The position numbers and the translations under genes are program-made. The notes under the pieces were generated by a model, which was not told the DNA's origin, made no database searches, and saw nothing but the letters and a program-made list of their open reading frames with translations. Positions 2,234-41,432 of a DNA stretch of 64,000 nt are shown piece after piece. Source of the stretch: a phage; sequence record PZ445489.1; one strand, given 5' to 3'. Positions within the stretch are counted from its first letter, which is position 1; every line of letters starts with the position of its first letter.

Positions 2234-3124
2234 TTATACCAAATCTTTAAGCGATTCAGCAACTAAAATTTCAATACGTTTTGCCAACATATCGATCTCT
2301 TCTTTATTTAAATCACCTGGATCTTTGCCTTCAGGCAGGAGGAAGTTAGCAACTACAGGTGTTAAACGCGTTTTTGTACGAATTAGCTTAGCCAATGCTT
2401 GTGCAGCTTTATTACCAGAAGCATCATTATCTAGTAAGATAACAACAACTTTTACCCCAGCAATAATATAAGGACTGAACTTATCTGCAATGTTATCCGA
2501 AGTAAACTGATGTGTACCAAAGCAGCAAGAAGCATAGTCTATACCATTATCCTCTAGGTTCAGCATATCAAAGATACCTTCAACTAGAATAAGAACTGGA
2601 GTATTATATCGTACAGGGAAAATTGGTGGTGAAACTTGTTTTGGTTTTACTAAGTATTTAGGAGGGGCAGAACTGTTTATAGAACGACCCAAAAATAGGA
2701 TATTGCGTCCAACAGCATCTGTGATTGGGAATACAATTCTGCCTTCCCAGTCTGCTTGGTGTTGGAAAGCAAAATATTTCTTCAAGGTCTTAGAACTTAT
2801 ACCTCGGAAATCACCTTCGAAAAGGTAAGCAGATTCAGGAATTGCAAGATTCGTAGATCCATTCCTAATCTCTGAAATCTTTTTACGTACCTGTGATAGT
2901 CTTGGGGACTGCCGGTACTGAGTCTCATTAAAATAATGGTAAATGCTCGGTATACCTTTACCGAAGCCACAACTCAAGCAGTGCATAATACCTGTTTCAG
3001 GATCAATACGCAAACTTGGGTGTTTATCGTCATGATCTGGATTGAGACAACAGATGAGGATGTCCCCACCTGTGTCTTTATATTCAATGCCTTTCAGATC
3101 AAGTAGTTCTGTTATTCTACTCAT
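2234..3124 (-). CDS. DNA primase (DnaG-like, CHC2 zinc finger + Toprim)
   Basis: CCLNPDHDDKHPSLRIDPETGIMHCLSCGFGKG zinc-binding motif; Toprim motifs VLILVEG and VVVILLDNDASG. Confidence 0.85.
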   Translation of the reverse strand: MSRITELLDLKGIEYKDTGGDILICCLNPDHDDKHPSLRIDPETGIMHCLSCGFGKGIPSIYHYFNETQYRQSPRLSQVRKKISEIRNGSTNLAIPESAYLFEGDFRGISSKTLKKYFAFQHQADWEGRIVFPITDAVGRNILFLGRSINSSAPPKYLVKPKQVSPPIFPVRYNTPVLILVEGIFDMLNLEDNGIDYASCCFGTHQFTSDNIADKFSPYIIAGVKVVVILLDNDASGNKAAQALAKLIRTKTRLTPVVANFLLPEGKDPGDLNKEEIDMLAKRIEILVAESLKDLV

Positions 3125-4593
3125 ATATCGCTGGCCTGTTCACCTGTTGAATTTTCAGTTTTATCTTTCTTAGCACGTTTAGGTTGAGCCGACTTATCCT
3201 TCTCAATAGGGATAACGAACTCAGCTTCCATTTGAGATATGTCTTCCATTGCTAGGTTAGTTGTATTATCCATTCGCAGAGTTTCCCAGTTCATCTTAGG
3301 CATAAACTTCACGCTATCAGAAGAACGAGTCTTAACGAAGTCAAACATAATAGCACCTTGACCATTATCAGCTTTTGCAGCATTAAGATTAGCAGCCATG
3401 TCTGCGGAGTCAAGAATCCCCTTTGACATACGTGTTCTACCATCTTGATCGATCTGGTAAGGAGCTACACCAGCCACGTTATGTTTCTGGCAGATAGATT
3501 TGAAAGATGAGCTAACAACCATCTGTTCTTTCCAGTCATACATATCAATGGTTTTAGAGTCTGGAAGTCGGGTTTGGTTAATATAGTCCAGTAAAGCTAC
3601 TGTAACTTTATCACCATATCTAGCAACTAATTTATTTAATTCTACGTCAACTGTTGTAATGGACAGTTCGGGGTCATAAACAATAATCATAGGAGTATGT
3701 AGTTCATATCCCTCTATTAGCTTACTCTCCATATCGTAGAAATCACTCATCTTAGCCATTGTGTACTGTTTAACGAAGCTATCGAAAAGCTCTTCACCAC
3801 CATTAAACATTCTAGCTCTAGTTCTGGCTAATCTCAACAGAGCTGCACCTTCTAGAGTATTATTACGCATTGCTAATGCTGATACACCAGCTAACATGGC
3901 TAGATTACGTCTAAATACTTCATGTTCTTTCATCTCAATTGAGAAGTATGGAGCAATATCCCCATTCAAATATTGCTGAACCTGTATGTTTGAACAGATA
4001 ATGGATTTACCAGTACCACGCCAACCACCAAGCAGTAACGTTTCTGTGCGAGCTAAACCAATTTGAGCGTCGAACTCATTACAAATACCAAGAGCGATTA
4101 AGTTCAGTTTGGTATCTTCTTCTCTCTGGAAAATACGCATGTTATCTGCGTTGAATACTTTTCCAGTATTCGTTACTTTCTCTTCTAATTTTAAGTGAAG
4201 GGAGGCAACTCGGTTGAGAATTTCTCCCTGATCCAGCATTGTTAAATCTTGAAGCACGTCTGTTTCTAGAAGCTTCAGGAATAAATCCTGTGTATATTCG
4301 GCCTCTAGGACTTCAAGTGCCTGTTCCATGCTCACTTCTGGAATTTGAGTGTTAGCTAAGACGACTAGAGCTTGAGAAAGGCGGGCGTTCCTATTAGCTT
4401 CAAGCATAAGTGCGTCAATGGACGGCATTGTGTTATATTTTTTATAATAATTCTGGACGGCTTGGTAAATTGAGGAGAAAGCGTCATTAAAATGATCTTT
4501 ATGCAGTTTTGAGAATGTTTCCAATGCTATTTGCTTCTGTTCGGAAGCTAGAAGCATCTTCAACACTACAGCTTGCACGTTAAACAAGGTCAT
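3121..4593 (-). CDS. DnaB-like replicative DNA helicase
   Basis: Walker A-like GWRGTGKS, RecA-like C-terminal half; start taken at ATG 4593-4591 preceded by AAGGAG (ORF track extends to 4644). Confidence 0.6.
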   Translation of the reverse strand: MTLFNVQAVVLKMLLASEQKQIALETFSKLHKDHFNDAFSSIYQAVQNYYKKYNTMPSIDALMLEANRNARLSQALVVLANTQIPEVSMEQALEVLEAEYTQDLFLKLLETDVLQDLTMLDQGEILNRVASLHLKLEEKVTNTGKVFNADNMRIFQREEDTKLNLIALGICNEFDAQIGLARTETLLLGGWRGTGKSIICSNIQVQQYLNGDIAPYFSIEMKEHEVFRRNLAMLAGVSALAMRNNTLEGAALLRLARTRARMFNGGEELFDSFVKQYTMAKMSDFYDMESKLIEGYELHTPMIIVYDPELSITTVDVELNKLVARYGDKVTVALLDYINQTRLPDSKTIDMYDWKEQMVVSSSFKSICQKHNVAGVAPYQIDQDGRTRMSKGILDSADMAANLNAAKADNGQGAIMFDFVKTRSSDSVKFMPKMNWETLRMDNTTNLAMEDISQMEAEFVIPIEKDKSAQPKRAKKDKTENSTGEQASDI

Positions 4594-4621
4594 TCTCCTT
4601 TGCACGCTTTCGTGCCTTCTA

Positions 4622-4658
4622 AATGCAAAAAGGGGAAGGAGCATAGCCCCCTCCCCTT
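4622..4658 (-). terminator. hairpin + T-run (minus strand) downstream of 4676..5443 gene
   Basis: AAGGGGA/TCCCCTT stem with T-rich tail on minus strand. Confidence 0.4.
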
Positions 4659-4675
4659 AGGTTTAATTTACCAGA

Positions 4676-5443
4676 TTATTCAGCAGCCGCAGCTTTTGCA
4701 TCCAGTTTAGCACGCTTAGCGGCACCATCATAGTCCTTAGCAACCAGACCACGACGAGACAGCATAGATTTAACACCACGCTCAGACTTACCAGTTTTCT
4801 CAGCGATCTCAGCAACAGTCATGTTAACCAGATCCAGACCTTCTAGCAGATCTTCACGAGTTTTAGCACTTGAAGTTTCCTGTACCGGCATAGCAGCGAT
4901 ACGACCTTCACGAAGCAGGCTCAGAGCTTTACCACGGATCTGCTTGATATTACGACCGAAGTGAGCAGCGATAGCTTCAATAGTAGCACCAGCAACAACC
5001 TGATTAACAAAATCAGTTTCTTCATCCGGAGTGAAGGAACGAACAGCAGCAGCTTTTTCAGTTGGCTTAACAGAAGCGGTCATTTCTAGACTCAGGATCT
5101 TACCCTGTACCTGTTTAGCACCGAACTGACCACCAGCTACAGCAGCAGCGATTTCAGCATAGGTATACTGACCAGCATGAGCGTTCAGGAAATCAACCAG
5201 TTCAGCTTCCTGCTCAGGAGTCCACGGAGATTTCTGCACTTCGTTAGCTTTTTGTACTTCAAAACCTTCTTTACGCAGTTTAGAGCCAACAGAGCGAGCA
5301 GTAACATCTTTGCCAGTTTCAGCAGCCAGTTCAGCAGCGATAGCCGCTACTTGTTCTTGAGAGATTACAGCAACACCCAGAGCAGTGGCTTTTGCTTTCA
5401 GAGACTCGGTTACACCTTCTACGTTCCAGTTCAGTTTAGACAT
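4676..5443 (-). CDS. hypothetical Ala-rich protein with internal tandem repeat (possible DNA-binding protein)
   Basis: Two similar segments TPEQEAELVDFLNAHAG... and TPDEETDFVNQVVAGA...; position in replication module. Confidence 0.5.
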   Translation of the reverse strand: MSKLNWNVEGVTESLKAKATALGVAVISQEQVAAIAAELAAETGKDVTARSVGSKLRKEGFEVQKANEVQKSPWTPEQEAELVDFLNAHAGQYTYAEIAAAVAGGQFGAKQVQGKILSLEMTASVKPTEKAAAVRSFTPDEETDFVNQVVAGATIEAIAAHFGRNIKQIRGKALSLLREGRIAAMPVQETSSAKTREDLLEGLDLVNMTVAEIAEKTGKSERGVKSMLSRRGLVAKDYDGAAKRAKLDAKAAAAE

Positions 5444-6209
5444 TATTATTTTTCTCCAATAGTTCTTTAATCGACAGGATTTCTATCCCATTCGTTTCGG
5501 CTTTCTTATAAGATGAGGAAGAACGCTTCGATTCATCCTCACAGATTAGGTATTTGACGTCTTTGGTAACGGATTTCTTAACCGTATATCCTAGACCTTC
5601 TAAATAGTTTGTTGCATCCGTTCTATTTGCAAAATCTTGCAAAGATCCGGTAATACATACCGCGATTCCATTTGGCTGGGCAACTAATTCATCTGCAATG
5701 ACGGTTTTAGCTTTAGCACCAGTTGAGAATTTCCACGGTAGTTCGATAACATCCTTGCCTTGTGGGGAACTTAGCCAGGCTTTGTAGTTTTCTCCAGCCT
5801 TGCCGTCAGCCTTCACATCGTGGAAGCTAGTGCAATTTTGGGATAATTTCTTTGCTGCAACCTCTCCGATTAGGGGGATTCCTAAAGAACCGAGAACTGA
5901 ACCAAAGTCAATGTCTCCGCGAACTTTAGTGTTTAATTCGCTAATTAATTTAGCGGCAACCTTGCTACCCACTGCTCTAACCAAATCTTCTTCGGTTAGG
6001 TAAAATAGTTCTGAAATCTTCGTCAGCTCCAGCTTCTCAATAGTTTTTGGGCCAAAGCCCTTTAACTTCATTTTTGTACAAAAGTTCTCAATTAGCTTAC
6101 TTGATTGCGCTGGACAGTTGGACTTATTCCTACAGAATAATTGCCCGTTGACAAGATCTAGCTTAGAACCACAAGAGGGACATTGTGTTGGAATTTCGAT
6201 TTTCATCAA
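5436..6209 (-). CDS. ligB: NAD-dependent DNA ligase, C-terminal subunit (Zn finger, HhH, BRCT)
   Basis: CPSCGSKL...C..NKSNCP zinc ribbon, HhH-like GFGPKTIEKL, C-terminal BRCT-like segment GIAVCITGSL; separate ORF from the adenylation domain. Confidence 0.8.
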   Translation of the reverse strand: MMKIEIPTQCPSCGSKLDLVNGQLFCRNKSNCPAQSSKLIENFCTKMKLKGFGPKTIEKLELTKISELFYLTEEDLVRAVGSKVAAKLISELNTKVRGDIDFGSVLGSLGIPLIGEVAAKKLSQNCTSFHDVKADGKAGENYKAWLSSPQGKDVIELPWKFSTGAKAKTVIADELVAQPNGIAVCITGSLQDFANRTDATNYLEGLGYTVKKSVTKDVKYLICEDESKRSSSSYKKAETNGIEILSIKELLEKNNNV

Positions 6210-6236
6210 ATTTCTTCCTTATCAATTTATATAAAT

Positions 6237-6265
6237 ATTATAGCAAGTATTTAAGCATTTAGCAA
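6237..6265 (-). promoter_or_regulatory. early-type sigma70 promoter (minus strand) between ligase subunit genes
   Basis: minus strand TTGCTA-17 nt-TATAAT followed by conserved ATTTATATAAATTGAT leader. Confidence 0.6.
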
Positions 6266-6408
6266 CTACAATTTTAACTAACTTTGCTTACCCTCGCCAT
6301 AACTTTCTATCCCTCAACTGAATGATAATAGTATATACCTAAGCGGCGAAAATGTCAATAACCACTTTATAATTCCGATATGGTAGATGGGTAGCAAAGG
6401 GTTATGTA

Positions 6409-7383
6409 TTAATCGTATACTCGCTCTACTATGCACGGGATTACACCACCAGCACGAATTACTCGAATCTGGCAACCGATCTCTAGATCGAGAGAGTTAA
6501 TATAATCAACGTTATTAAGAGTCGCTTTAACAATTGTAGCGTCATCAATAATTACCGGTTCGAAATAACCAACAGGAGTTACTTTACCAGAAGCCCCTAC
6601 CTGCCATTCAACTTTAGTAAGAGTTGTAATCTCGCCTTCTTCATCCTCTTTAATAGCGAATGCCCCACGAGGGAATTTATTAGTCCAGCCTTCTCGGAAG
6701 AATTTGTTGTTGTCATTAATACGAACAACTTTACCGTCCGTCGGAATCCATTTAAAGAAGGAACGCACATTAACAACTGTTAAGAAATCTTCATTCTCTA
6801 GCCAGAGCATATCTTTTAAATATGCTTCTGTAATACCTACAGACTCAGCAGAACATTGGATACCATAAGCAACGAAGATTAAACCACCTTCCCCGATACG
6901 TTGTACGAAATCATCACTATCTTTGAGGTTAATAGCACCAGAGGCAAAGTTACGTTTATTTTCTACTTCTTTTGTAATTAGAACTTCACCAGTGATTTGA
7001 GTAGGTACTTTTTGGGAAATCTTTTTAGGGATGTTCAGCAATCTTACGTTGCTTGTGACATCATTCCCTAGAATACCATTACCACGAGTTAGTGCTTGAA
7101 CAAATTCTCCATTAATATATAACAGAGAAATTGCACAACCATCTAACTTATCAGTTTCTACTTGACCTAATGGGTTAAATGGGGGTTTATCTCCACGATT
7201 ATAATAAACTTTCTGTAAAGAATACATACGATACAGATGTGGAATATCACCCTTAGGCCCGATCTCTTCTTCTAGTGGGAAGCGTTTTACCAGGCAATCA
7301 TACTCCTCATCAGAGATTAAAGACATACCTTGATAATATGCTTCTTGACAGCGTTTAATAAATTCTTTTACATTATTCATCAT
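6409..7383 (-). CDS. ligA: NAD-dependent DNA ligase, N-terminal adenylation subunit
   Basis: KxDG adenylation motif (ETDKLDGCAIS), ligase-like downstream motifs. Confidence 0.8.
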   Translation of the reverse strand: MMNNVKEFIKRCQEAYYQGMSLISDEEYDCLVKRFPLEEEIGPKGDIPHLYRMYSLQKVYYNRGDKPPFNPLGQVETDKLDGCAISLLYINGEFVQALTRGNGILGNDVTSNVRLLNIPKKISQKVPTQITGEVLITKEVENKRNFASGAINLKDSDDFVQRIGEGGLIFVAYGIQCSAESVGITEAYLKDMLWLENEDFLTVVNVRSFFKWIPTDGKVVRINDNNKFFREGWTNKFPRGAFAIKEDEEGEITTLTKVEWQVGASGKVTPVGYFEPVIIDDATIVKATLNNVDYINSLDLEIGCQIRVIRAGGVIPCIVERVYD

Positions 7384-7582
7384 CGGCGATTTCCATCTTG
7401 AGTTCTTTATTATATTGTGTAACCATATCCATCAAATCAGCAGATTCTTTCAGAAACGCATCTTTGTACACCTTTTGATTTACTGTGCCTATGCTATCTT
7501 GATAATTAATGCGTGCTGTGGAAAGTAGATTAAGTTTTGCTTGAATCTTGGGAAGTGTTACTTTCATAATTGATCCTCTCAT
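7373..7582 (-). CDS. hypothetical protein (69 aa)
   Basis: ORF directly downstream of a conserved promoter (7597-7625, minus). Confidence 0.45.
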   Translation of the reverse strand: MRGSIMKVTLPKIQAKLNLLSTARINYQDSIGTVNQKVYKDAFLKESADLMDMVTQYNKELKMEIADDE

Positions 7583-7596
7583 TAATTTATATAAAT

Positions 7597-7625
7597 ATTA
7601 TATAACAAAACTGAGTTGAAAGCAA
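7597..7625 (-). promoter_or_regulatory. early-type sigma70 promoter (minus strand)
   Basis: minus strand TTGCTT-17-TATAAT. Confidence 0.55.
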
Positions 7626-7652
7626 ATACATTTATAAAGAAAAAGCCAAGAA

Positions 7653-7961
7653 CTAGGCATTCTTGGCTTTGAGTTCTTCAGCTCGTTTCTGTACTTCATG
7701 TAAAACCTCAGATTCGCTAAGAATCTGTGTAAACGCATAGAAAAGCTGTGATGTTGTTTCCAGGGTGTAAGGAAAAGAGAAGCCAGATTTCGTTGGAAAC
7801 CATTCATCATTAATATCAAGAAGCCAGTAACGAATACCCATGTATAGATTCCCACGAAATTCAGATACTGTTAATCTTACTTGTTCCCCCTCCTTCTCCC
7901 AAAGTATGATGGACTGGTCATCAACGTGTCCTTCATAGTTTTGATTTACCTGTTCGCTCAT
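7653..7961 (-). CDS. hypothetical protein (102 aa)
   Basis: ORF in minus-strand gene series. Confidence 0.5.
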   Translation of the reverse strand: MSEQVNQNYEGHVDDQSIILWEKEGEQVRLTVSEFRGNLYMGIRYWLLDINDEWFPTKSGFSFPYTLETTSQLFYAFTQILSESEVLHEVQKRAEELKAKNA

Positions 7962-8011
7962 TTACATATCCCAAATACACAAAAAGCCCCATATAGGGGC
8001 TAATTGGTTTC

Positions 8012-8308
8012 TTATCGGCCTACTGGAGAAGCACGATCTAACTCTGATTGGAGGCTAGTCACACGACGGACTTTCTCGACAGGAATAAAACGGAAACTAT
8101 CATTAGTACGAGAGAAGACAAGAATTTCATCATCTTTCGCTTTACGAATACGTTCACGTTTAATACGCTCAGCCAGATATTTATCTTGGGCTGGATCAAA
8201 TTCCATCGTACCCTGAAGGTACGTGGTTCCTTTCTGACGAAGTTTCTCGTAATGAAGATAAAACTCACCAAATTTTTCGCACTGTGCAATAATTTCAGCT
8301 TTAGTCAT
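8012..8308 (-). CDS. hypothetical protein (98 aa)
   Basis: ORF in minus-strand gene series. Confidence 0.5.
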   Translation of the reverse strand: MTKAEIIAQCEKFGEFYLHYEKLRQKGTTYLQGTMEFDPAQDKYLAERIKRERIRKAKDDEILVFSRTNDSFRFIPVEKVRRVTSLQSELDRASPVGR

Positions 8309-8345
8309 AGCTATAGTTCCTTTTGTTGGTGGATTTATCTAAAAA

Positions 8346-8756
8346 TTACTTAGTGATAGCTCGGATTGCTTCTGCCAGATGAGCGGCCGCTTTACCAGTC
8401 AGTTTGTCGATAATTGCATCATCCAGAAAATCTGGTGCTAAGCCAGCATCAGAGAATGCTGCGCGAAGGTCGGCATGGGCTTGAGCTTTGGAGGTACGAG
8501 AACCACCGGAAGCTTTTTCTCCAGTAGATGCGCTAGATTTAGAAGTAGAACCAGCAGCTTTCTTAATATACAAACCTGCTTTAGTCAGCTTCATACGAAA
8601 ACCGTTCGGAGTTACACCATTTTCCTGGGCAATTTCGCTAACAATTTCCATGCTAACACCCGGACGTTCATCCTCTGGGAATTGCTCCATACGAGCAACG
8701 TATTCGGAAGACATTTTTTCGAACAGTTCATCAGTCCACTGAGTTGGAGTAGTCAT
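8346..8756 (-). CDS. hypothetical protein (136 aa)
   Basis: ORF with conserved promoter upstream (minus strand, ~8790-8830). Confidence 0.55.
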   Translation of the reverse strand: MTTPTQWTDELFEKMSSEYVARMEQFPEDERPGVSMEIVSEIAQENGVTPNGFRMKLTKAGLYIKKAAGSTSKSSASTGEKASGGSRTSKAQAHADLRAAFSDAGLAPDFLDDAIIDKLTGKAAAHLAEAIRAITK

Positions 8757-40703: not shown

Positions 40704-41072
40704 TTGCAAATGCAATTATCAAACAAGATTCAAGGTTATTTCGGTCATGTGACAATGGAGTTCGCATTGCAGCATGGCTGGGATATGGAAAAAGATCTAT
40801 CGGAATTTTATGAGTCTCATAAAGAGATTGATCTTAGTTCTGTCTATTTGGGATTATCTACTGGTCAAGAACTTACAGAATATGATGTATTCAAGGCAAG
40901 TCAAGGTGAGATAACACCTAGTTTTGCCGAGTTCTGGCTAGGAATTACCTTGAAGGATAATGCACCAGATGAAGGTGTGGTTATGCAAAGTATGCACTCT
41001 GGAAGCTCTGATTACCTTTACGTTCGTGATGTAAAGGAACTACAGGAAATCGCTAAAAATGTACTTGCTTAA
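40704..41072 (+). CDS. hypothetical protein (122 aa)
   Basis: ORF with RBS AAGGAATTG. Confidence 0.5.
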   Translation: MQMQLSNKIQGYFGHVTMEFALQHGWDMEKDLSEFYESHKEIDLSSVYLGLSTGQELTEYDVFKASQGEITPSFAEFWLGITLKDNAPDEGVVMQSMHSGSSDYLYVRDVKELQEIAKNVLA

Positions 41073-41093
41073 TGCTTAATTTCTTGTTATAAT
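41065..41093 (+). promoter_or_regulatory. early-type promoter
   Basis: TTGCTT-17-TATAAT. Confidence 0.55.
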
Positions 41094-41432
41094 ATTTATA
41101 TAAATTGATGCGAAAATAGCTGCCTAGATACCAGGTGTATGACGTCTACACTAGCAGAGCTACCGAAAAAGAGATCCTCAGGATAAACGTCGTAGCAAAA
41201 TTAGTCTGGTATCCATCAATTTAGTTCACTAAGGTATTAGCTCGACCTAGGACTGGCTGCCAAAAAGCACGATCCCTACAATTCGGGAGAAGTTCTAGAT
41301 TAGTCCACTAGATTCAGCGGCAACTGAATAGTGTATCGGGTTTGCGAGATGACGCAGTTCCTTCCGCTCGAAGCGAAGGTGCTGTAGTTACGCCGAGCTA
41401 ATAGCCTTAGTAAACTTACAGGGGTTAACGCA

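What the first reader, a model, noticed from the sequence alone, without database searches (positions are those of the whole stretch)
5436..7383. NAD-dependent DNA ligase split into two genes with an intervening promoter
The adenylation domain (KxDG) and the Zn-finger/HhH/BRCT half are separate ORFs divided by ~200 bp containing a consensus early promoter (6237-6265, minus strand), so the two halves can be transcribed independently. Split ligases are known in T5-type phages; the internal promoter suggests differential dosage.
Basis: partly seen in the sequence, partly recalled or inferred. Interest (0 to 1): 0.35.

Follow-up and report, generated by a model that had tools for sequence, protein, structure and literature searches.

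The report
Known T5 split ligase with promoters
This is the well-known two-gene NAD-dependent DNA ligase (ligA/ligB) of a T5-like phage, with the already annotated T5 early promoters P-K28b and P-K28a between the two genes; the finding is real but ordinary.

Summary
The window comes from a T5-like phage (96-97% identical to known Tequintaviruses). ligA (6409-7380, minus) encodes domain Ia, the adenylation domain (K78-L-D-G) and the OB fold. ligB (5436-6206, minus) encodes the Zn finger, HhH and BRCT domains. The 202-bp gap has stop codons in every frame and is 100% identical to phage T5.

The split is not a frameshift. It recurs in more than 400 phage genomes and in all 114 related IMG/VR loci examined, with no fused form. 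The Providencia phage PR1 orthologues are deposited as a two-chain structure (PDB 9hu3). A 2006 paper already cites the split T5 ligase as a 2005 discovery.

One comparative point may add something. A near-consensus sigma-70 promoter lies just upstream of ligB in 64 of 65 divergent relatives, against 22% for other gene starts. The promoter therefore looks about as old as the split. The gap is also a recurrent insertion site for GIY-YIG-type and other genes. "Differential dosage" is plausible but untested, and it cannot be separated from expression of the D5-like gene that always follows ligB.

The parts
6409..7380 (-). [quoted passage not shown] It carries a short domain Ia, the nucleotidyltransferase domain with K78-L-D-G81, and the OB fold. 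Stop codon TAA at 6411-6409.
   Evidence: It aligns to E. coli LigA (2owo) up to residue 390 and to 9hu3 chain A at E = 6e-103.
6207..6408 (-). 202-nt non-coding gap between ligA and ligB. It has stops in all frames, no terminator and no Rfam match. It is 100% identical to T5 and is more conserved than the flanking genes.
6330..6358 (-). Upstream tandem promoter, equal to T5 'promoter P-K 28b': TTGACA (6358-6353), 17-nt spacer, TATACT (6335-6330).
   Evidence: 11 of 12 matches; T5 annotation; conserved in relatives.
It is followed by the shared early-promoter core ATTTATATAAATTGAT.
   Evidence: A promoter in the equivalent position is present in 64 of 65 divergent relatives.
6214..6220 (-). 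Shine-Dalgarno sequence AAGGAAG, 7 nt upstream of the ligB ATG (6206-6204).
   Evidence: Read directly from the sequence.
5436..6206 (-). ligB: NAD-dependent DNA ligase subunit B (256 aa). It carries the C4 Zn finger (C9, C12, C25, C31), the HhH region and BRCT.
   Evidence: It aligns to E. coli LigA from residue 402 and to 9hu3 chain B at E = 4e-81.
4676..5443 (-). D5-like DNA-binding protein gene (255 aa). Its ATG (5443-5441) overlaps the end of ligB by 8 nt, so it is co-transcribed and probably translationally coupled with ligB.
   Evidence: It lies directly downstream of ligB in every relative where it was found.
4630..4658 (-). Intrinsic-terminator-like hairpin with a T run. It ends the ligB-D5 unit or attenuates transcription into the helicase gene.
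7597..7625 (-). Promoter heading the small ORF and ligA: TTGCTT, 17-nt spacer, TATAAT, then the same early-promoter core. It lies just downstream of the terminator at 7670-7642.

Best explanation
The window carries the two-subunit NAD-dependent DNA ligase that is standard in T5-like phages (Demerecviridae). An ancestral LigA-type gene is broken cleanly in the linker between the OB fold and the Zn finger. LigA performs adenylation and nick sealing (Ia, NTase, OB). LigB supplies the DNA-clamping and DNA-binding half (Zn, HhH, BRCT). The two polypeptides assemble non-covalently into the active enzyme.

The 202-nt gap is the T5 early promoter pair P-K28b and P-K28a, read by host sigma-70 RNA polymerase.

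Inferred transcription map: terminator (7670-7642), promoter (7625-7597), small ORF, ligA, P-K28b, P-K28a, ligB, D5-like gene, terminator (4658-4630). ligA is therefore read from one promoter, while ligB and the D5-like gene are read from up to three. This predicts at least as much ligB mRNA as ligA mRNA, and it boosts the D5-like gene.

What is shown: the gene structure, the domain content, the identity to annotated T5 promoters, the conservation, and a two-chain structure entry for an orthologous pair. What is inferred: promoter activity in this phage, read-through, the mRNA and protein ratios, and which downstream gene the promoters are selected for.
For: Phage identity:
- 514 phage records match the region, 428 of them over at least 80% of it. 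The best matches are 96-97% identical and are annotated ligA/ligB or subunit A/B.

Domains and break point:
- Pfam domains are as described above.
- ligA residues 214-320 align to 2owo residues 284-390, and ligB residues 3-122 align to 2owo residues 402-529. No ligase segment is missing.

Two-chain enzyme:
- PDB 9hu3 and 9i5i contain chain A (339 aa) and chain B ('DNA ligase subunit B', 248 aa), matching at E = 6e-103 and 4e-81.
- Chain A is 100% identical to Providencia phage PR1.

Prior knowledge:
[quoted passage not shown] 2005.

Promoters:
- The gap is 100% identical to T5 AY692264, where it is annotated 'promoter P-K 28a' and 'promoter P-K 28b'. AY587007 annotates the same sites as T5P37 and T5P36.
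- Hexamer matches are 10 of 12 and 11 of 12.
- The -10 and initial transcribed core occurs 9 times in the window against 0 expected.

Conservation:
- Mean nucleotide diversity in the gap is 0.011, against 0.153 and 0.088 at third codon positions of ligA and ligB, in 30 Tequintavirus sequences.
- The tandem pair with about 93-nt spacing persists in relatives whose ligase is 55-66% identical, although their gap sequence has diverged.
- A promoter scoring at least 10 of 12 lies within 130 nt upstream of ligB in 64 of 65 loci. The figures are 51 of 71 for ligA, 0 of 37 for the PC4-like gene, 0 of 47 for the helicase, and 22% for other gene starts.

No termination or structure in the gap:
- No terminator-like site lies on the minus strand between 4659 and 7641.
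- The gap folds no better than shuffled sequence, z = -0.9.
- There is no Rfam match.
Against: - No transcript or protein data for this phage were available, so promoter use, read-through and subunit ratio are inferred.
- The experimental papers behind the P-K28a/b names (Gentz and Bujard 1985, as I recall) could not be opened. The experimental status of these promoters therefore rests on the GenBank annotation and on my memory.
- The comparative promoter counts come from related, not independent, genomes.
- The whole 170-nt region, including the spacer between the promoters, is as conserved as second codon positions. Two promoters alone do not obviously require that.
Confidence: 0.9

Rival explanations
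1. The split is a sequencing frameshift or a pseudogene, and the true gene is one continuous ligA.
For: None was found.
Against: - The 202-nt gap has several stops in all three frames.
- The gap corresponds to no ligase residues: the E. coli LigA alignment runs to residue 390 in ligA and resumes at residue 402 in ligB.
- The same two-gene layout is found in 428 phage records and in all 34 + 80 IMG/VR loci, with gaps of 57-1559 bp and no fused form.
- All 120 best protein homologues of ligA are 240-340 aa long.
- PDB 9hu3 holds the two chains separately.
Confidence: 0.01
2. The internal promoters are selected to set the ratio of the two ligase subunits, with LigB in excess over LigA.
For: - ligB lies downstream of three promoters and ligA downstream of one, with no terminator between them.
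- The ligB promoter is the most consistently kept promoter in the conserved PC4-ligA-ligB-D5-helicase block: 64 of 65 loci.
- It stays next to ligB even when 0.6-1.5 kb of other genes are inserted in the gap.
Against: - The D5-like gene follows ligB in every locus where it was found. In this window it overlaps the ligB stop.
- In the few cases that could be scored, the D5-like gene had no promoter of its own (0 of 9). Every argument for ligB therefore applies equally to D5.
- As I recall, D5 is an abundant early DNA-binding protein in T5. That recollection was not verified here.
- No measurement of subunit stoichiometry exists in what I could read.
Confidence: 0.3
3. The gap is the scar of a mobile-element insertion, a free-standing homing-endonuclease gene that broke the ligase gene. 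The promoters arrived with that element or were recruited afterwards.
For: - In relative L028 a 213-aa GIY-YIG ORF sits between the ligA stop and the promoter pair.
- Many marine relatives carry a recurrent T5orf172-like ORF of about 122 aa (GIY-YIG superfamily as I recall; borderline Pfam score of 20.2 against a cut-off of 20) immediately upstream of the ligB promoter.
- Other relatives have NADAR, 2OG-Fe(II) oxygenase or SET-domain genes there. The junction is clearly a repeated insertion site.
Against: - This window has no endonuclease gene or recognisable remnant in the gap.
- The inserted genes differ between lineages, which fits later insertions into an existing gap as well as it fits the founding event.
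- No fused outgroup close to this clade was recovered that could polarise the event.
Confidence: 0.25

Closest known systems
Bacteriophage T5 ligA/ligB (T5p114/T5p115; dnlj1/dnlj2) with promoters P-K28b and P-K28a (T5P36/T5P37)
   Same: Same gene pair, same break point and same neighbours. The gap is 100% identical over 261 nt, including both annotated promoters. The proteins are about 95-99% identical.
   Different: The coding DNA differs by about 4-5%. The window also has an extra 65- to 69-aa ORF between the PC4-like gene and ligA that the T5 reference lacks.
Providencia phage vB_PreS_PR1 two-chain NAD-dependent ligase, PDB 9hu3/9i5i
   Same: An orthologous LigA (chain A) and 'DNA ligase subunit B' (chain B) deposited together. 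Locus L032, from a contig of the same length as the PR1 genome (118,537 bp), has a 192-nt gap with two promoters at the same spacing.
   Different: Protein identity to L032 is only about 54-55%. No paper describing the structure was found in the library, so details of the subunit interface are unknown to me.
Bacterial single-chain LigA (E. coli 2owo, T. filiformis 1v9p/1dgs)
   Same: Same domain order: Ia, NTase, OB, Zn, HhH, BRCT. It shares the motif I lysine and the four Zn-finger cysteines.
   Different: It is a single polypeptide of about 670 aa. The phage enzyme is two chains totalling 579 aa, with a shorter domain Ia and NTase domain and a shorter OB-Zn linker.
Genes-in-pieces created by free-standing homing endonucleases (for example Aeromonas phage Aeh1 nrdA split by mobE; recalled from memory, not checked here)
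   Same: An essential DNA-metabolism enzyme is split into two adjacent genes whose products reassemble. In some relatives GIY-YIG-type genes occupy the gap.
   Different: This window has no endonuclease in the gap. The constant feature of the gap across the clade is a promoter, not an endonuclease gene.

Membership tests
NAD-dependent DNA ligase (LigA family) | Nucleotidyltransferase (adenylation) domain with motif I KxDG | tested here: met
   PF01653 scores 82.8 bits against a cut-off of 27. K78-L-D-G81 is present, and K78, D80 and G81 are invariant in 14 homologues.
NAD-dependent DNA ligase (LigA family) | OB-fold domain following the NTase domain | tested here: met
   PF03120 scores 78.4 bits against a cut-off of 32.9. 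The region aligns to 2owo residues 284-390.
NAD-dependent DNA ligase (LigA family) | N-terminal domain Ia (NMN/NAD+ specificity) | tested here: inconclusive
   Residues 2-42 align to domain Ia of 1v9p only at a non-significant score. A YY...ISDEEYD motif that I recall as typical of domain Ia is visible, and Y15, E25, Y27 and D28 are invariant in homologues. Cofactor use was not tested.
NAD-dependent DNA ligase (LigA family) | C4 Zn finger, HhH domain and BRCT domain | tested here: met
   ligB has C9, C12, C25 and C31 and aligns to 2owo residues 402-529 and to 1dgs residues 400-653. BRCT PF00533 scores 32.7 bits against a cut-off of 21.3. HhH_2 scores 24.6 bits, below its cut-off of 27.
Two-subunit (split) ligase of T5-like phages | Break between the OB fold and the Zn finger, giving two adjacent co-oriented genes | tested here: met
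   The same layout is found in T5 and in all 114 related loci.
Two-subunit (split) ligase of T5-like phages | The two polypeptides form one active enzyme | not testable with these tools
   Supported only indirectly, by the two-chain PDB entries 9hu3 and 9i5i for the PR1 orthologues.
T5 early promoters (P-K28a / P-K28b) | Sequence identity to the annotated T5 promoter regions | tested here: met
   100% identity over window 6180-6440 to AY692264, where 'promoter P-K 28a' and 'promoter P-K 28b' are annotated.
T5 early promoters (P-K28a / P-K28b) | Sigma-70 hexamers with a 17-nt spacer and the AT-rich ATATT discriminator reported for T5 early promoters (PMC7472727) | tested here: met
   TTGCTA-17-TATAAT is followed by ATTTAT, so ATATT spans the end of the -10. 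TTGACA-17-TATACT is followed by ATTAT, which gives CTATT, a near match only.
T5 early promoters (P-K28a / P-K28b) | Transcription initiation in vivo or in vitro | not testable with these tools
   The original promoter papers could not be opened, and no transcript data were available.
Gene split by a homing endonuclease, intron or intein | Endonuclease ORF, group I/II intron or in-frame intein at the break | tested here: not met
   The 202-nt gap holds no ORF of 30 aa or more that lies within it. There is no Rfam intron match. Relatives L028 and several marine loci do carry GIY-YIG or T5orf172-type ORFs there.

The most novel reading that the evidence does not exclude
The split and the ligB-proximal promoter are one co-evolved device. 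Breaking the ligase at the OB/Zn linker created, or was fixed because it created, a strong internal start for a ligB-D5(-helicase) transcription unit. LigB would then be made in excess of LigA and would have a role of its own, for example as a nick- or DNA-binding partner acting with D5. Consistent observations: the promoter is kept in 64 of 65 divergent lineages; it sometimes shares the ligA stop codon with its -35 hexamer; and within the genus the whole 170-nt region is as conserved as second codon positions.
Probability: 0.12. Interest if true: 0.5.

Novelty: already known. Interest (0 to 1): 0.15.

Why it matters
For annotation, this settles that the two ORFs are the normal ligA and ligB of a T5-like phage and should not be merged or flagged as a pseudogene. 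It also settles that the gap holds the known early promoters P-K28b and P-K28a.

The only point beyond existing records is comparative. Across the whole clade of split ligases, down to about 34-45% protein identity, ligB keeps its own near-consensus promoter. The junction also repeatedly acquires GIY-YIG-type and other accessory genes. If pursued, this could show whether gene splitting in phages is maintained for transcriptional reasons. It is a modest question, not a surprise.

Tried and rejected
- Rfam search of 5000-8000 at E <= 1 found nothing, so no intron, riboswitch or sRNA family is present.
- RNA folding of the gap gave z = -0.9, so there is no evidence of structure or of a terminator.
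- Literature searches for the promoter names (K28a), for PDB code 9HU3, and for T5 transcriptomics returned nothing useful.
- Gentz and Bujard 1985 (PMC214212) is not held in the library.
- The supplement of PMC7472727 holds only the legend of its promoter alignment.
- A mini-ORF (MARVSKVS, 6300-6274) with a Shine-Dalgarno-like GAGGGA lies between the two promoters. I rejected it as a conserved feature because the more distant relatives L030, L034 and L036 have no equivalent. L032 and L033 have an unrelated 9-codon ORF in that position.
- I considered predicting structures of the two halves. I did not run this because an experimental two-chain structure of orthologues exists and the tool cannot model the complex.
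Full report
**What is in the sequence**

On the minus strand, ORF 6409..7383 (324 aa; 323 aa from the second ATG, as in the T5 annotation) is followed by ORF 5436..6209. The second ORF has a TTG start at 6209. An ATG at 6206 sits 7 nt after an AAGGAAG Shine-Dalgarno sequence.

Pfam places the NAD-ligase adenylation domain (82.8 bits) and the OB fold (78.4 bits) in the first ORF. It places BRCT (32.7 bits) and a sub-threshold HhH hit in the second. KxDG is K78-L-D-G81. The four Zn-finger cysteines are C9, C12, C25 and C31 of the second protein.

Against E. coli LigA (2owo), the first protein aligns up to residue 390 and the second from residue 402. The break therefore lies in the OB-Zn linker and no ligase segment is missing.

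The 202 nt between the TAA stop (6411-6409) and the ATG has several stop codons in every frame.

**The promoters**

The consensus scan finds TTGACA-17-TATACT at 6358-6330 (11 of 12 matches) and TTGCTA-17-TG-TATAAT at 6265-6237 (10 of 12). These are the two best-scoring sites on the coding strand in 4500-8500. The raw number of promoter-like matches in that region is not above chance (8 against 9.5 expected). The case therefore rests on position, identity and conservation.

**What it is**

The region matches 514 phage records, mostly Salmonella, Escherichia and Klebsiella T5-like phages. The best matches are 96-97% identical and are annotated as NAD-dependent DNA ligase subunits A and B.

The gap with its edges (6180-6440) is 100% identical to phage T5 AY692264. 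That record annotates 'promoter P-K 28a' (equivalent to window ~6211-6285) and 'promoter P-K 28b' (~6304-6378) between ligA (T5p114) and ligB (T5p115). AY587007 annotates the same sites as putative early promoters T5P37 and T5P36 between dnlj1 and dnlj2.

P-K28b was missed.

As I recall, these names come from the Bujard laboratory's functional selection of strong T5 promoters (Gentz and Bujard 1985). That paper is cited in PMC7472727 but could not be opened, so this attribution rests on memory.

The -10 and initial transcribed core, TATAATATTTATATAAATTGAT, occurs 9 times in the window with up to 3 mismatches, against 0 expected. One of these copies lies at 7602-7581, in front of the small ORF that precedes ligA. 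P-K28a is thus one member of the T5 early-promoter family.

PMC7472727 reports an ATATT discriminator element in all known T5 early promoters. P-K28a has it and P-K28b has CTATT.

**Not a frameshift**

- The two-gene layout is present in 428 records covering at least 80% of the query.
- It is present in all 34 IMG/VR loci found with LigB.
- It is present in all 80 further loci found with a LigA profile. These reach down to 44% (LigA) and 33% (LigB) identity, have gaps of 57 to 1559 bp, and include no fused form.
- The 120 best protein homologues of LigA are all 240-340 aa long.
- PDB entries 9hu3 and 9i5i contain a 339-aa chain A and a 248-aa chain B called 'DNA ligase subunit B' (E = 6e-103 and 4e-81). 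Chain A is 100% identical to Providencia phage vB_PreS_PR1.
[quoted passage not shown] It reports that a LigN truncation carrying only Ia, the adenylation domain and OB still adenylates itself.

**Transcription map (inferred)**

A terminator-like hairpin at 7670-7642 follows the PC4-like gene. The map then runs as follows:

1. Promoter at 7625-7597.
2. A 65- to 69-aa ORF (7373-7582).
3. ligA.
4. P-K28b, then P-K28a.
5. ligB.
6. A 255-aa D5-like DNA-binding protein gene (4676-5443), whose ATG overlaps the end of ligB by 8 nt.
7. A strong terminator-like hairpin at 4658-4630.

No terminator-like site lies between ligA and ligB. The gap folds no better than shuffled sequence (z = -0.9). There is no Rfam match.

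ligB can therefore be transcribed without ligA, while ligA transcripts most probably continue into ligB. On this map ligB and the D5-like gene lie downstream of three promoters and ligA downstream of one.

**Conservation**

In an alignment of 30 distinct Tequintavirus sequences, mean nucleotide diversity is as follows:

| Region | Mean diversity |
|---|---|
| Gap | 0.011 |
| ligA, third codon positions | 0.153 |
| ligB, third codon positions | 0.088 |
| ligA / ligB, second codon positions | 0.013 / 0.011 |

The 50-nt windows that cover the promoters and the spacer between them have diversity of 0.001-0.008.

In relatives whose ligase is only 55-66% identical (L030, L032-L034, L036, L045), the gap sequence has diverged. 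Two promoters about 86-96 nt apart remain (TTGACx-17-TATAxT, then TTGCxx-17-TATAAT or TATACT).

In aquatic metagenomic relatives (LigA 43-47% identical), the gap is often only 57-90 nt and holds one perfect or near-perfect TTGACA-17-TATAAT. In some of them (L062, L067, L069) the ligA TGA stop codon lies inside the -35 hexamer.

The table gives the fraction of loci with a site scoring at least 10 of 12 within 130 nt upstream of each gene:

| Gene | Loci with a promoter |
|---|---|
| ligB | 64 of 65 |
| ligA | 51 of 71 |
| PC4-like gene | 0 of 37 |
| Helicase | 0 of 47 |
| D5-like gene | 0 of 9 |
| Other plus-strand gene starts in the same loci | 22% (42% where the gap is at least 40 nt) |

When the gap carries inserted genes, the promoter still lies immediately upstream of ligB. 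These genomes are related to one another, so the counts are not independent events. The surrounding sequence is not conserved, however, which argues for selection on the promoter itself.

**What the promoter is for**

The gene order PC4-like, ligA, ligB, D5-like, helicase holds in every locus long enough to show it. The promoter in front of ligB is therefore equally the promoter of the D5-like gene and, through the terminator, of the helicase.

The data cannot separate 'LigB must exceed LigA' from 'D5 needs strong early transcription and ligB happens to lie in between'. I therefore treat differential dosage of the ligase subunits as a plausible but unproven consequence, not as the demonstrated function.

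**Origin of the split**

The junction is a repeated insertion site:

- A 213-aa GIY-YIG ORF in L028.
- A 205-aa NADAR protein in L034.
- A 55-aa ORF in L036.
- A recurrent T5orf172-like ORF of about 122 aa in many marine relatives. It is a borderline Pfam hit, and I recall the domain as belonging to the GIY-YIG superfamily.
- 2OG-Fe(II) oxygenase, SET-domain and other small genes.

This is compatible with an origin by endonuclease invasion. I recall such an origin being described for other phage 'genes in pieces'. It fits later insertions into an existing promoter gap equally well, and no close fused outgroup was recovered to decide between the two.

**Verdict**

The split ligase was reported in 2005, the promoters are annotated in the T5 GenBank records, and an orthologous two-chain enzyme has a deposited structure. 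The finding is already known and of low interest. The one modest addition is that the ligB promoter is conserved across the entire split-ligase clade and that the junction is an insertion hot spot.

Noticed in passing
window 7373-7582 (minus): There is a 65- to 69-aa ORF (MKVTLPKIQ...) between the PC4-like gene and ligA. Its stop overlaps the ligA start (ATGATGA). It has no Pfam match. The T5 reference lacks this ORF and is about 185 bp shorter here. Among the related loci only L040 and L043 have a homologue (64-81% identity).
   Followed up: partly
window 4593-4658 (minus): The longest helicase ORF (3121-4644, 507 aa, as annotated in T5) starts inside the terminator hairpin at 4658-4630. An ATG at 4593 preceded by AAGGAGA looks like the real start, so the public annotation probably over-extends the N-terminus. 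No promoter precedes the helicase in 0 of 47 relatives, which suggests it is expressed by read-through of this terminator.
   Followed up: partly
window 6266-6329 (minus): The spacer between the two promoters is as invariant as the promoters themselves within Tequintavirus (diversity 0.004-0.008, below second codon positions). It is not conserved in more distant genera. It contains a mini-ORF, MARVSKVS (6300-6274), with a Shine-Dalgarno-like GAGGGA upstream. The reason for this conservation is unexplained.
   Followed up: partly
window 30017, 37155, 38243, 41088, 43877, 46016, 53503 (plus strand); 6221, 7581 (minus strand): There are nine copies of the early-promoter core TATAATATTTATATAAATTGAT with up to 3 mismatches, against 0 expected. 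All copies left of about 8 kb are on the minus strand and all copies right of 30 kb are on the plus strand, which marks divergent early transcription units. The copy at 41054-41109 is 89% identical to P-K28a over 56 nt.
   Followed up: partly
L028 2206-3000; L034 2199-3000; L058, L065, L080, L084, L091, L096, L102, L109 gaps: The ligA-ligB junction is an insertion hot spot in relatives. Inserts include a GIY-YIG ORF (213 aa), a NADAR protein (205 aa), a recurrent T5orf172-like ORF of about 122 aa, a 2OG-Fe(II) oxygenase, a SET-domain protein and others. All lie upstream of the retained ligB promoter.
   Followed up: partly
L062 3692, L067 3933, L069 3951 (ligA stop): In several aquatic metagenomic relatives the ligA TGA stop codon is part of the -35 hexamer TTGAC(A/T) of the ligB promoter. 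The whole gap is only 57-58 nt.
   Followed up: no
protein P0012: A 240-aa fragment 100% identical to this phage's LigA is deposited as 'hypothetical protein, partial [Enterococcus faecalis]' on a 723-bp contig. This is probably T5-like phage contamination of that assembly.
   Followed up: no
L117 (Escherichia phage TrudiRoth) 2528-2885: This Epseptimavirus has a 358-nt ligA-ligB gap, about 156 nt longer than in the window, with no annotated gene. Only the ligB-proximal 75% of the window's gap query matches it.
   Followed up: no
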